Source: a virus (lineage: Duplodnaviria > Heunggongvirae > Uroviricota > Caudoviricetes). Taken from it: 25,651 nucleotides of DNA. Numbering within the stretch: the first letter of the stretch is position 1; the number at the start of each line of letters is the position of its first letter. This document shows, piece by piece, positions 1 to 20,843 of the stretch. The stretch is taken from positions 1 through 25,651 of the IMG/VR virus record IMGVR_UViG_2778261088_000004; one strand, written 5' to 3'. The notes under the pieces are model-generated. The model did no database searches. It worked only from the letters and a program-made list of their open reading frames with translations, and was not told the DNA's origin. Made by a program: the position numbers and the translations under genes.

Positions 1-191
1 GGTAAGCAGAGTTTTTGAAATGTAAGGCCTTTGAATAAGACAAAAGGCTGCCTCATCGCTAACTTTGCAACAGTGCCCCAAATAGTGTTAAAGCGCATAT
101 CTGGAGTTCATTCTGGCAAGATCCGGAAGGTTGGATTTCTCGTTGTGTCACTACTGAGTGCTGGGGTGACCAGGGGTTCTTACGAAAGGTT

Positions 192-12075: not shown

Positions 12076-12432
12076 TTATGACCGTAAATTATTAGCGGAT
12101 TTTAAGCCATATTCACCGTTGTAGAAATTACTCATGTTCCATTCATTAGGAAGTTCTTTTCTGTCCAATGTATAGTGGCGCACGATATAACGATCTTCAT
12201 CTTCTTCGATGGACAGGCGGACATAGCCAATGTGAATCACCGATACGGGCGGTGTTCGTATTGCATAGATGTCGCGGAGATATACCGGCAGCTCGACAAA
12301 TGCATCAGGTGCATCTGTGATGCTCGTTTTTTCACAGTATTCATATAACGCATCGTTGATATTGTTAAGAGATTCATGATCGTATATTTCCAGGTAATTA
12401 CCGCGATCGCGATGGTACTCGATTTTAGCCAT
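12076..12432 (-). CDS. Hypothetical protein (118 aa), distal gene of a divergent two-gene operon
   Basis: ATG directly abuts the stop of the upstream gene (TGAATG), with AGGGG upstream; acidic; no family recognised. Confidence 0.6.
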   Translation of the reverse strand: MAKIEYHRDRGNYLEIYDHESLNNINDALYEYCEKTSITDAPDAFVELPVYLRDIYAIRTPPVSVIHIGYVRLSIEEDEDRYIVRHYTLDRKELPNEWNMSNFYNGEYGLKSANNLRS

Positions 12433-13017
12433 TCAAAATCCCCTGTTATCGTTTTGCATTTCTCTAATCCGGTTCAGAACTACTTCATGCTGGACTTGGA
12501 TAGCGGCTTTTTCGTTTTCAAGCCGGGCAATAGACATCTCTAATTCTTTGCTGTACCAGGCGAGCTGGGCCAGGTTCATCCGGTTGTGGTCGAGAGTTGG
12601 AGACACTTCGACGCGATCCCTTTCTTCCTGCTTTAATGAGAAGAGATTTATCTCATCCCTTGAGGAAAATTCAGCAACAATTTCTTGTTGATGATCCGGT
12701 CGCTGCGGCATCCTCGCCAGTATAAATGGCGGTTCTTTTGAAAACATGAATGTCGGTTCAGACCGTGTTTTTACCCAGCTTGCCTGCTGTCTTTCGGCAA
12801 GTTCACAGGCTTCATCATAGTTATCTGCCAAACAAAGCACGGATGGACGGTCCCACGCCCCACCATTCAGACAATAAACTACAATTTTCCCGTCAGGTTG
12901 TGTAACCCCATATGGATGGTCCCACCAGGCGTCCAGCTGAGCTTTAGAGCGTTTCTCGTTAGGAGTGCAGTCAAAATTTTTGGGCAATACAGGATCGAGA
13001 GGAATGCGGGCAGGCAT
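12433..13017 (-). CDS. Hypothetical protein (194 aa), proximal gene of a divergent two-gene operon
   Basis: ATG at 13017 with AAGGA 8 nt upstream; C-terminal coiled-coil-like segment; shares its upstream intergenic region with humD. Confidence 0.6.
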   Translation of the reverse strand: MPARIPLDPVLPKNFDCTPNEKRSKAQLDAWWDHPYGVTQPDGKIVVYCLNGGAWDRPSVLCLADNYDEACELAERQQASWVKTRSEPTFMFSKEPPFILARMPQRPDHQQEIVAEFSSRDEINLFSLKQEERDRVEVSPTLDHNRMNLAQLAWYSKELEMSIARLENEKAAIQVQHEVVLNRIREMQNDNRGF

Positions 13018-13152
13018 AGCTAATTCCTTATTAACTGATTGGCAACGAGGTTACGCTGATCCGTTGGTGATGAATAGTAGCAAAGAGCACAAAATCATCA
13101 GCGGTGGTTGATGTACGTAACGCGTTTGCACCAAAGGTGTCTCTTTAATGTA

Positions 13153-13172
13153 TACTGTATAAATGAACAGTA
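13153..13172 (+). promoter_or_regulatory. LexA (SOS) box TACTGTATAAATGAACAGTA
   Basis: CTGT-N8-ACAG with flanking TA/TA, close to the E. coli LexA consensus TACTGTATATATATACAGTA; 20 nt upstream of the humD ATG and overlapping a TATAAAT -10-like hexamer. Confidence 0.7.
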
Positions 13173-13191
13173 TTATTGAGGTGAAAACGCT

Positions 13192-13581
13192 ATGGGCTTC
13201 CCTTCTCCTGCGGCGGATTATGTTGAAAGCCGAATTTCTCTTGATCAGCAACTAATCAGGCATCCATCAGCAACCTACTTCATGCGGGCAGCTGATAGCC
13301 ATCACCGTGAGGGAATATTGCAGGGTGCTTTGCTGGTGGTTGATTCCTCGCTTACTCCGGTTGATGGTTCTCTGCTTGTGTGCGCTATGGAGGGTGAATA
13401 TCGCATAAAGAGATACAGGAAGTATCCGCGCCAGCACCTGGAGGATTTAAGCACCGGGAAGAAAGAGGCGTTACCAGTAGATGACGATGGATGCACGGGC
13501 AGTAATGCTGTTTTTGGTGTGATCACTCATGTCATCAATGATGCCCGAAGTGGGGAGTTTGATGATTGTCCGGTTATTTAA
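13192..13581 (+). CDS. humD: HumD, UmuD'-like SOS mutagenesis protein homolog (129 aa)
   Basis: GFPSPAADYVE...HPSATYF...FGVITHV aligns with the E. coli UmuD C-terminal domain; LexA box upstream; position before phd-doc as in P1. Confidence 0.85.
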   Translation: MGFPSPAADYVESRISLDQQLIRHPSATYFMRAADSHHREGILQGALLVVDSSLTPVDGSLLVCAMEGEYRIKRYRKYPRQHLEDLSTGKKEALPVDDDGCTGSNAVFGVITHVINDARSGEFDDCPVI

Positions 13582-13653
13582 GCTGCAAAGGGCTGGTGCT
13601 TTATGCCTGTGAGGTTTATAATTGTGTACACATAACGAGTACACGAGGTGTTT

Positions 13654-13875
13654 ATGCAATCCATTAACTTCCGTACCGCGCGCGGCAACCTTTCTGAAGT
13701 GCTCAACAATGTTGAAGCCGGGGAAGAGGTTGAAATCACCCGCAGAGGCCGTGAGCCAGCAGTAATTGTCAGCAAGGCTACTTTCGAAGCCTACAAAAAA
13801 GCGGCGCTGGATGCTGAATTTGCATCCCTGTTTGACACCCTGGACTCCACCAACAAGGAACTGGTTAACCGATAA
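13654..13875 (+). CDS. phd: Phd antitoxin (73 aa)
   Basis: [39 protein letters not shown]... recognised as P1 Phd; stop overlaps the doc start (TAATG). Confidence 0.9.
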
Positions 13876-15511: not shown

Positions 15512-15528
15512 ATTGCTCTAATGTATTG
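15512..15528 (+). promoter_or_regulatory. C1 operator (ATTGCTCTAATGTATTG) upstream of lpa
   Basis: Matches the C1 operator consensus; followed by a TATTAT -10-like hexamer; consistent with C1 control of lpa in P1. Confidence 0.55.
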
Positions 15529-20348: not shown

Positions 20349-20391
20349 TGATTTTTATGCACAGCTGGACGTAAACTCCTCTTCGGACCTA

Positions 20392-20425
20392 ATAACTTCG
20401 TATAGCATACATTATACGAAGTTAT
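20392..20425 (+). other. loxP site (ATAACTTCGTATA-GCATACAT-TATACGAAGTTAT)
   Basis: Exact 34-bp loxP: two 13-bp inverted arms around the 8-bp asymmetric spacer. Confidence 0.97.
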
Positions 20426-20843
20426 CTTAGGGGTTATTGAACATGATCAATTTACCTGTAAATCCATACAGTTCAATACCTTATCAGGTCAAATAGTGAT
20501 CACTTGATCATTTGATCAAGGTTGCGCTACGTAAAATCTGCGAAATGTTGGCGGTGTTAGTCCTACAGATTTCGCGTAGCGCACTTAGCACCACCAATCA
20601 ATCAGAGGTGAAAAATGGGATATTCAGCTGCTAAAGTGTCCACTCATCTTGAGCTTGAGAAAAACCGTGGTTACTGGCGGGCAAAAGGGTTTGAGCGTGA
20701 TAGTTACCAACTGTCATTATCTCGCGGTGAAGAGAAAATAGAACGCACGCGCGGTCGCTGGCGTTCCTATGACGAGAACCATAAACAGGTAAAGGCAGAG
20801 CCGATCCTGTACACTTTACTTAAAACCATTATCTGAGTGTTAA

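What the first reader, a model, noticed from the sequence alone, without database searches (positions are those of the whole stretch)
13153..13172. Near-consensus LexA box overlapping the humD promoter
TACTGTATAAATGAACAGTA has the CTGT-N8-ACAG core and TA flanks of an E. coli SOS box, overlaps a TATAAAT -10-like element, and sits 20 nt before the ATG of a UmuD'-like gene. The phage-plasmid's mutagenesis accessory subunit is therefore expected to be induced together with the host SOS response. The same box may also affect the divergent operon to its left.
Basis: partly seen in the sequence, partly recalled or inferred. Interest (0 to 1): 0.45.

Follow-up and report, generated by a model that had tools for sequence, protein, structure and literature searches.

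The report
Known LexA operator of P1 humD
The 20-bp sequence is a genuine, high-scoring binding site for the host SOS repressor LexA in front of the phage P1/P7 humD (pre-activated UmuD') gene, but this same site is already annotated in the reference P1 and P7 genomes, so it is a correct but ordinary finding.

Summary
TACTGTATAAATGAACAGTA lies at 13153-13172, 19 nt before the humD ATG (13192). It is the best LexA-type site in the window (heterology index about 4.0, between dinQ and uvrB). None of 200 surrogate sequences reached that score.

The window is a P1/P7-type phage-plasmid. GenBank AF234172 (P1) and AF503408 (P7) already carry a LexA protein_bind feature on the homologous 20 bp, and the literature calls humD LexA-regulated. 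I found no direct binding or expression test in the papers I could read.

New supporting evidence comes from comparison:
- All 80 close relatives keep a box 18-19 nt before the ATG. The CTGT/ACAG arms never vary; only spacer positions do.
- 26 of 27 HumD homologues at 50-74 % identity in other Enterobacteriaceae also have a strong box.
- E. coli umuD has the same box-19 nt-ATG layout.

The box travels with humD. Left-hand neighbours change about 10 nt upstream of it, and the only Lxr homologue found without humD has no box. Control of the leftward gene is therefore doubtful.

The promoter is unmapped.

Novelty: already known.

The parts
13153..13172 (.). LexA operator (SOS box) TACTGTATAAATGAACAGTA. 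The arms are CTGT at 13155-13158 and ACAG at 13167-13170.
   Evidence: Sequence read. HI 4.05, the best site in the window, with 0/200 surrogates reaching it and 0/100 shuffles matching. It is homologous to the LexA protein_bind features at AF234172 87545..87564 and AF503408 94404..94423. The arms are invariant in 27 unique relatives.
13192..13581 (+). humD, an orphan, pre-truncated UmuD'-type accessory subunit (129 aa). It is the gene the box is inferred to repress.
   Evidence: ORF. Peptidase_S24, E 5.7e-9. It aligns with E. coli UmuD from Gly25, and the Ser/Lys dyad positions are kept. Annotated as HumD in P1 and P7.
13180..13185 (+). Shine-Dalgarno-like GAGGTG, ending 6 nt before the ATG. 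It requires the transcription start to lie at or left of about 13178.
   Evidence: Read from the sequence. Conserved as GAGGT in relatives.
13151..13156 (+). Best-conserved candidate -10 hexamer, TATACT, straddling the left edge of the box (inferred, not mapped).
   Evidence: PWM score 8.7 when paired with TTGCAC, rank 85 of 307,392 candidates in the window; the known Pphd scores 9.1. Present in all P1-family left contexts except lab P1 itself.
13126..13131 (+). Candidate -35 hexamer, TTGCAC, 19 nt upstream of TATACT (inferred).
   Evidence: TTGCAC or TTTCAC occupies the same position (-27..-22 from the box) in three otherwise unrelated left contexts. It is analogous to TTGATC-N17/18-TACTGT in umuD and in distant homologues.
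13158..13164 (+).
   Evidence: Present. It has no usable -35 (AGGTGT at 17-nt spacing) and does not appear among the top PWM candidates. It reads TATGAAT in the common RCS47/D6-type relatives.
12433..13017 (-). Divergent Lxr-like gene (P7 upf94.2 type, 194 aa). Its ATG is 135 nt from the box. LexA control is claimed by P1's annotation but doubtful here.
   Evidence: ORF. Annotated in P1 as 'lxr, LexA regulated function' and in P7 as upf94.2. No Pfam family. Absent from RCS47 and D6, which keep the box. The uncoupled homologue L176 lacks a box.
13142..13144 (.). Mosaic breakpoint. Homology of divergent P1-like elements to this window begins here, about 10 nt left of the box, so box and humD form one module.
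   Evidence: Megablast hits to RCS47, D6, 813R1 and CMS-2020a start at query 1143-1145. Plasmid and E. coli hits start at query 23-25. Left contexts are shown.

Best explanation
The 20-mer is the operator through which the host LexA repressor controls humD of a P1/P7-type phage-plasmid.

Proposed mechanism. In an undamaged lysogen a LexA dimer sits on CTGT-N8-ACAG. The box covers the -10 region and the transcription start of a local sigma-70 promoter. The most likely promoter is TTGCAC-N19-TATACT; TATAAA inside the box is an alternative -10. Bound LexA therefore blocks RNA polymerase. DNA damage activates RecA, LexA cleaves itself, and humD is transcribed.

Consequence. HumD is born in the already-truncated UmuD' form, so it skips the RecA-mediated cleavage that delays activation of host UmuD. 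No phage C1 operator lies nearby. Among the regulators examined, LexA is therefore the only identifiable gate on its supply to host UmuC.

Basis of each step.
- Shown here: sequence, score, statistics, positional homology to the annotated P1/P7 site, deep conservation, and umuD-like geometry.
- Inferred: LexA occupancy, the exact promoter, and the repression mechanism.
- From the literature: HumD functions as UmuD' (McLenigan 1999, as cited in PMC7092418 and PMC4713147).
For: Score and statistics.
- HI 4.05, within the range of strongly LexA-dependent E. coli genes (dinQ 3.9, uvrB 4.3, recA 5.0).
- This box and the P2coi site are the only two credible sites in 25.6 kb, and they are the two LexA protein_bind features found in the parts of the P1 record I inspected.

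Existing annotation.
- The P1 and P7 records annotate the homologous 20 bp as a LexA binding site.
- PMC9603915 states that humD is LexA-regulated.

Conservation.
- 80 of 80 IMG/VR contigs with HumD at 96-100 % identity have a box with HI of 6.85 or lower, 18-19 nt before the ATG. There are 14 distinct box sequences. They differ mainly at positions 8, 9, 10 and 13 (rarely at 2, 7, 19, 20) and never in CTGT or ACAG.
- The roughly 85 %-identity plasmid class keeps boxes with different spacers.
- 26 of 27 full-length homologues at 50-74 % identity (Citrobacter, Klebsiella, Kluyvera, Enterobacter, Atlantibacter and others) have a box with HI between 1.1 and 8. It occurs as a single box 15-19 nt from the ATG, as a tandem pair, or ahead of a small upstream ORF in the same operon.

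Geometry and promoter.
- E. coli umuD has the same box-19 nt-ATG geometry.
- umuD and the distant homologues share TTGATC-N17/18-TACTGT, so the left arm of the box coincides with the -10.

Other regulators.
- No C1 operator lies near humD; the nearest match is at 15512.
Against: - No direct evidence of LexA binding or of lexA-dependent humD expression was found. The primary papers (PMC523184, PMC94175, PMC2072811) are not held.
- The standard sigma-70 scan finds no promoter in 12700-13700.
- The best candidate promoter has a long 19-nt spacer and only a moderate score.
- The P1 record places its predicted PhumD about 465 nt upstream, inside lxr, rather than at the box.
- The close relatives are phylogenetically shallow, so their invariance alone is weak evidence. 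The argument rests mainly on the divergent homologues.
Confidence: 0.88

Rival explanations
1. The box is a shared, bidirectional operator. It represses both humD and the divergent lxr-type operon (12433-13017 and the 118-aa ORF downstream of it), as the P1 annotation states ('LexA binding site in the regulatory region of lxr and humD').
For: - The P1 record names the leftward gene lxr, 'LexA regulated function'.
- In 51 of 53 Lxr-selected loci the box sits at a fixed 134-136 nt from the lxr ATG.
- Weak leftward promoter candidates overlap the box: TTCACC(13185)-N20-TACAGT scores 6.5 and TTCACC-N18-TATACA scores 5.0.
Against: - The box lies 135 nt from the lxr ATG.
- The best leftward promoter candidate, CTGATG(13101..13096)-N16-TACTAT(13079..13074), score 7.6, lies more than 50 nt outside the box.
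- RCS47, D6, L031/L081-type and plasmid relatives have no lxr but keep the box next to humD.
- The recombination breakpoint lies between lxr and the box.
- The one complete locus with an Lxr homologue but no humD (L176, 65 % identity) has no LexA box in its 234-nt upstream region; the best HI there is 15.2. This is a single case.
Confidence: 0.3
2. humD is transcribed from a distant upstream promoter: the P1-record PhumD inside lxr, or read-through from hot or late promoters where hot precedes humD. The box would then act as a downstream roadblock rather than by promoter occlusion.
For: - AF234172 annotates a predicted PhumD at 87080-87106. The identical sequence is at window 12688-12714.
- In RCS47 and D6, hot is co-directional and immediately upstream of humD.
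Against: - The annotated PhumD is TTGATG-N15-CATCCT, with a poor -10 and a 15-nt spacer.
- It is absent from every lxr-less context, yet box position and humD are conserved there.
- umuD and the distant homologues place a conserved TTGATC -35 17-18 nt before the box. That is the classic occlusion arrangement.
Confidence: 0.08
3. The palindrome is a chance or relic match with no regulatory role.
For: No experimental evidence of binding was found in the accessible papers. No promoter passes the standard consensus scan.
Against: - None of 200 surrogates and none of 100 shuffles reach it.
- The arms are invariant while the spacer varies.
- Boxes with unrelated spacers sit in front of homologues as low as 50 % identity.
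Confidence: 0.03

Closest known systems
LexA binding site of phage P1 (AF234172 87545..87564) and phage P7 (AF503408 94404..94423), upstream of humD
   Same: The 20-bp sequence is identical, as are the 19-nt gap to the humD ATG and the downstream phd-doc-pdcA-pdcB order. The window is 97.7-99.4 % identical to P1 and P7 records across the region.
   Different: The window has the P7-type left end (upf94.2/upf93.6). P1 c1-100 homology starts only at window 12483. Lab P1 has G instead of A at the base just left of the box, giving TGTACT rather than TATACT.
E. coli umuDC operator (TACTGTATATAAAAACAGTA)
   Same: Both are 20-bp LexA boxes with perfect CTGT/ACAG arms and TA flanks, 19 nt before the start codon of a UmuD-family gene. 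In both, an A/T-rich spacer contains TATAAA.
   Different: umuD encodes the full-length 139-aa precursor and is followed by umuC. humD starts at the equivalent of Gly25 and has no umuC partner. The umuD -35 is TTGATC at N17 from TACTGT, whereas the P1 family has TTGCAC at N19 from TATACT. HI is 2.4 for umuD and 4.05 for humD.
P1 P2coi LexA site (AF234172 46..65), the second SOS box of the same phage
   Same: It is a host LexA box inside a phage promoter, present in this window at 20454-20473.
   Different: It is weaker (HI 7.55). It lies squarely between the -35 and -10 of a strong leftward promoter, TTGAAC-N16-TAAATT, score 11.0. It controls the anti-repressor Coi and so the lysis-lysogeny switch, not a repair function (PMC4713147).

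Membership tests
Gammaproteobacterial (E. coli-type) LexA operator / SOS box | 20-bp imperfect palindrome with a CTGT-N8-ACAG core (consensus TACTGTATATATATACAGTA) | tested here: met
   17 of 20 positions match the consensus, and both arms and the TA flanks are perfect.
Gammaproteobacterial (E. coli-type) LexA operator / SOS box | Heterology index within the range of operators that bind LexA and confer lexA-dependent expression | tested here: met
   HI 4.05 on a 24-site symmetrised matrix. Published values for proven SOS genes run from 1.8 to 13 (PMC11228462).
Gammaproteobacterial (E. coli-type) LexA operator / SOS box | Position overlapping the -35, -10 or transcription start of the regulated promoter | tested here: inconclusive
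   The standard scan finds no promoter. A relaxed PWM gives TTGCAC-N19-TATACT, which the box overlaps. The footprint across relatives and umuD supports a -10 at the left arm of the box. No transcription-start data were found.
Gammaproteobacterial (E. coli-type) LexA operator / SOS box | Conservation of the site in front of orthologous genes despite divergence of the flanks | tested here: met
   80 of 80 close relatives and 26 of 27 distant homologues have a box.
Gammaproteobacterial (E. coli-type) LexA operator / SOS box | Physical LexA binding and derepression on LexA cleavage | not testable with these tools
   This needs EMSA or footprinting and expression assays in lexA alleles. Nothing was found in the held literature.
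HumD-type orphan UmuD' protein (the regulated gene) | Peptidase S24 / UmuD fold | tested here: met
   PF00717, E 5.7e-9, 36.1 bits against a cutoff of 23.3.
HumD-type orphan UmuD' protein (the regulated gene) | Begins at the UmuD Cys24/Gly25 cleavage position, so the N-terminal arm is absent | tested here: met
   MGFPSPAADYVE in HumD aligns with UmuD ...C-GFPSPAADYVE. There is no in-frame upstream extension, because the box and the SD sequence lie immediately upstream.
HumD-type orphan UmuD' protein (the regulated gene) | No cognate umuC partner downstream | tested here: met
   phd-doc follow humD. No UmuC-like hit occurs within 2 kb in any HumD-type locus.
HumD-type orphan UmuD' protein (the regulated gene) | Functionally substitutes for UmuD' with host UmuC | not testable with these tools
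   Reported by McLenigan et al. 1999, as cited in PMC7092418 and PMC4713147. The paper itself is not held.

The most novel reading that the evidence does not exclude
The box is the operator of a self-contained, horizontally exchanged cassette made of a LexA box plus an orphan umuD' gene. Its recombination breakpoint lies about 10 nt left of the box. The neighbouring gene, named lxr ('LexA-regulated') in P1, is not actually under LexA control. Across Enterobacteriaceae the same cassette exists in architectures I have not seen described: tandem operators 4 nt apart, or a conserved 79-aa ORF co-transcribed ahead of humD. Together these would define a broader SOS-gated accessory module that feeds pre-activated UmuD' to host Pol V.
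Probability: 0.4. Interest if true: 0.3.

Novelty: already known. Interest (0 to 1): 0.15.

Why it matters
The site links a widespread mobile element to the host SOS response. The module is found in 657 PLSDB plasmids and in 697 of 5,426 complete E. coli genomes.

When LexA is cleaved, the phage-plasmid can supply UmuD' that needs no RecA-mediated processing. This could shorten the delay before error-prone Pol V becomes active and raise damage-induced mutagenesis in lysogens, including under quinolone treatment.

This idea, and the site itself, are already in the P1 literature and annotation. The value of this check is to confirm the call, to show that the box belongs to humD rather than to lxr, and to point out that the promoter and LexA binding seem never to have been mapped in the papers accessible here.

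Tried and rejected
- The standard sigma-70 and terminator scan of 12700-13700 gave no promoter. It found only a weak 5-bp hairpin with a T-run at 13128-13140.
- The repeat finder reported no inverted repeat, because the 6-bp arms fall below its minimum length. This is uninformative.
- The P1-record PhumD (window 12688-12714, TTGATG-N15-CATCCT) was considered as the real promoter. I rejected it as the general one because it lies inside lxr and is missing from lxr-less relatives that keep the box.
- The -10-like TATTAT at 13171-13176 was rejected. Transcription from it would start at or after the Shine-Dalgarno sequence.
- Phage C1 repressor as a rival regulator: there are 9 operator-like matches in the window, but none within 2 kb of humD.
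- Pfam gave nothing for the Lxr-like protein. It gave only a sub-threshold DUF7588 hit for the 118-aa ORF and nothing for the 79-aa upstream ORF of distant homologues.
- Łobocka 2004 (PMC523184), McLenigan 1999 (PMC94175) and Chikova 2007 (PMC2072811) are not held.
- Searches for experimental LexA binding at this P1 site found nothing. Ronayne 2016 used humD only as a gene not under C1 control in thermal-induction RT-qPCR, not in an SOS test.

Full report
**Observation.**
Window 13153-13172 reads TACTGTATAAATGAACAGTA. It has perfect CTGT and ACAG arms separated by 8 nt, with TA flanks. TATAAAT lies inside the spacer at 13158-13164. A GAGGTG Shine-Dalgarno sequence is at 13180-13185. The ATG of a 129-aa ORF is at 13192, 19 nt after the box.

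The site is far from a chance match:
- CTGT-N8-ACAG occurs twice in the window, against 0.21 expected.
- A match to the 20-mer consensus with at most 3 mismatches occurs once, and in none of 100 shuffles.
Its values track the published HIs listed in PMC11228462.
- On that matrix the box scores HI 4.05, the best 20-mer in the window. It falls between dinQ and uvrB, ahead of recA and sulA.
- None of 200 Markov surrogates reached that score.
- Only one other site is credible: 20454-20473 (HI 7.55). The third best scores 12.85.

**What the window is.**
The region is 99.4 % identical to P1-type records and 98.8 % identical to P7. The gene order is upf93.6, then upf94.2 (lxr-like) on the minus strand, followed by humD, phd, doc, pdcA and pdcB on the plus strand.

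The curated P1 record AF234172 carries a protein_bind feature for LexA at 87545..87564. Its note reads 'LexA binding site in the regulatory region of lxr and humD'. This is the same 20 bp with the same 19-nt gap. The P7 record AF503408 has 'LexA; regulation of humD expression' at 94404..94423.

The second site in the window corresponds to P1's other annotated LexA site (46..65), which overlaps promoter P2coi next to lox. [quoted passage not shown] The finding is therefore already known.

I could not read Łobocka 2004, McLenigan 1999 or Chikova 2007, which are not held. No accessible paper tested LexA binding or lexA-dependent expression of humD.

**The regulated gene.**
HumD is a Peptidase_S24 protein. 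Aligned with E. coli UmuD it begins at Gly25 (MGFPSPAADYVE...), which is the UmuD' form, and it keeps the Ser and Lys dyad positions. No umuC follows it. PMC7092418 describes HumD as an 'already activated' UmuD. No C1 operator lies within 2 kb, so LexA is the only recognisable regulator.

**Comparative evidence (new here).**
- Close relatives. I fetched 80 IMG/VR contigs encoding HumD at 96-100 % identity. All 80 have a box with HI of 6.85 or lower, 18-19 nt before the ATG. There are 14 distinct box sequences. Across 27 unique upstream sequences the variation falls mainly at box positions 8, 9, 10 and 13 (rarely at 2, 7, 19, 20) and never in CTGT or ACAG.
- The 85 %-identity class. Plasmids at about 85 % identity carry TACTGTATGTGTATACAGTA or TACTGTATGGATAAACAGTA.
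- Distant homologues. I fetched 38 loci from other species, of which 27 encode full-length HumD-type proteins at 50-74 % identity. All are 100-129 aa, start MGFP or MAFP, and lack umuC. 26 of the 27 have a box with HI between 1.1 and 8.0.
- Three architectures occur among them. One is a single box 15-19 nt from the ATG. Another is two boxes 4 nt apart. The third is a box followed by a conserved 79-aa ORF and then humD, forming a two-gene operon. The single exception (L102) has a disrupted upstream ORF.
- E. coli umuD itself has the box, 19 nt, then ATG.

This is strong phylogenetic-footprint support for a functional operator.

**Which gene owns the box.**
Homology of divergent P1-like elements to the window starts at about 13142-13144, roughly 10 nt left of the box.
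- RCS47 and D6 have no lxr. There, hot is co-directional and immediately upstream, and the box is retained.
- At least two further left contexts exist: L031/L081/L182 and L014/L018.
- When loci are selected by the Lxr-like protein instead, 51 of 53 have the divergent humD and box at 134-136 nt. One of the other two is truncated.
- The remaining one, L176 (65 % identity), is the only locus with an Lxr homologue uncoupled from humD. It has no LexA box in its 234-nt upstream region.
- The best leftward promoter candidate (13101..13074) lies outside the box.

I therefore regard the box as humD's operator. I give only about 0.3 to LexA control of lxr, despite the gene's name. This rests on one uncoupled case and on promoter predictions.

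**Promoter.**
The standard scan finds no sigma-70 promoter. A relaxed PWM gives TTGCAC (13126-13131), 19 nt, TATACT (13151-13156), with a score of 8.7. That is rank 85 of about 307,000 candidates, comparable with the known Pphd at 9.1.

TTGCAC or TTTCAC sits at the same distance from the box in three unrelated left contexts. umuD and the distant homologues share TTGATC-N17/18-TACTGT, which makes the left arm of the box the -10.

On either model the box covers the -10 and the start site, so occlusion is the likely mechanism. The P1-record PhumD (TTGATG-N15-CATCCT, window 12688-12714) is weak and is absent from lxr-less relatives.

**Verdict.**
The site is real and almost certainly functional (confidence 0.88). 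It is already annotated in the P1 and P7 records and accepted in the literature. It is also common: 657 PLSDB plasmids and 697 of 5,426 complete E. coli genomes carry the module. Interest is low.

The residual open points are experimental: LexA binding, the transcription start, and whether lxr is really LexA-regulated.

Noticed in passing
window 20454-20473: A second LexA box, ACCTGTAAATCCATACAGTT (HI 7.55), lies just right of loxP (20384-20417). It sits between the -35 and -10 of a strong leftward promoter, TTGAAC-N16-TAAATT (score 11.0). It corresponds to P1's annotated LexA site 46..65 in P2coi, which links SOS to the Coi anti-repressor. It is also already known.
   Followed up: partly
window 13142-13144 (and L003, L004, L031, L014, L181, L182): There is a recurrent mosaic junction about 10 nt left of the box. 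At least four unrelated left-hand contexts join the box and humD module here: lxr-side, hot-side, L031/L182 type and L014/L018 type. All keep a TTGCAC or TTTCAC hexamer 27-22 nt before the box.
   Followed up: yes
L001 (AF234172) position 2170, equivalent to window 13152: Lab P1 c1-100 has G where all 82 other P1-family sequences have A at the base immediately left of the box, turning TATACT into TGTACT. If TATACT is the -10, this would be a promoter-down change in the reference strain.
   Followed up: no
L087-L092, L100, L101 (Citrobacter, Klebsiella, Kluyvera, Pseudocitrobacter): These HumD homologues are preceded by two strong LexA boxes separated by only 4 nt, for example TACTGGATAGATATACAGTA-ttta-TACTGTGTTTTTATCCGGTA. 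This suggests cooperative, tighter repression.
   Followed up: partly
L087, L095, L103-L107, L109, L113 (about 260 nt upstream of the humD homologue): A conserved 79-aa ORF (MPRRSDIE...NWxWSLKQANxWI...FNPNGGL) sits between the LexA box and the humD homologue, forming an apparent two-gene SOS operon. It has no Pfam family. In L102 the ORF is disrupted and the box is gone.
   Followed up: partly
window 12076-13017 (- strand): The left arm is of the P7 type (upf94.2 of 194 aa and upf93.6 of 118 aa). Homology to P1 c1-100 begins only at window 12483, so the 3' end of the lxr-type gene and the gene after it differ from P1. Neither protein has a Pfam family above threshold.
   Followed up: partly
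window 13128-13140: A weak hairpin (GCACC-AAA-GGTGT) followed by a T-rich run overlaps the candidate -35 of humD. It was flagged as terminator-like by the scan, and shuffles give a similar number of such hits.
   Followed up: no
window 427, 476, 2568, 15512, 19785, 20249, 20332, 21893, 22368: There are nine C1-operator-like matches (ATTGCTCTAATAAATTT with at most 3 mismatches; 0.11 expected). They include the sites expected at lpa (15512) and around c1/coi/lox. None is near humD.
   Followed up: no
L112 (Bacillota MAG), L118 (Acinetobacter idrijaensis, 278-bp contig): HumD-like sequences appear in assemblies of unrelated taxa: 63 % identity in L112 and 96 % over 28 residues in L118. Contamination or mis-binning by enterobacterial phage-plasmid DNA is the most likely cause.
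   Followed up: no
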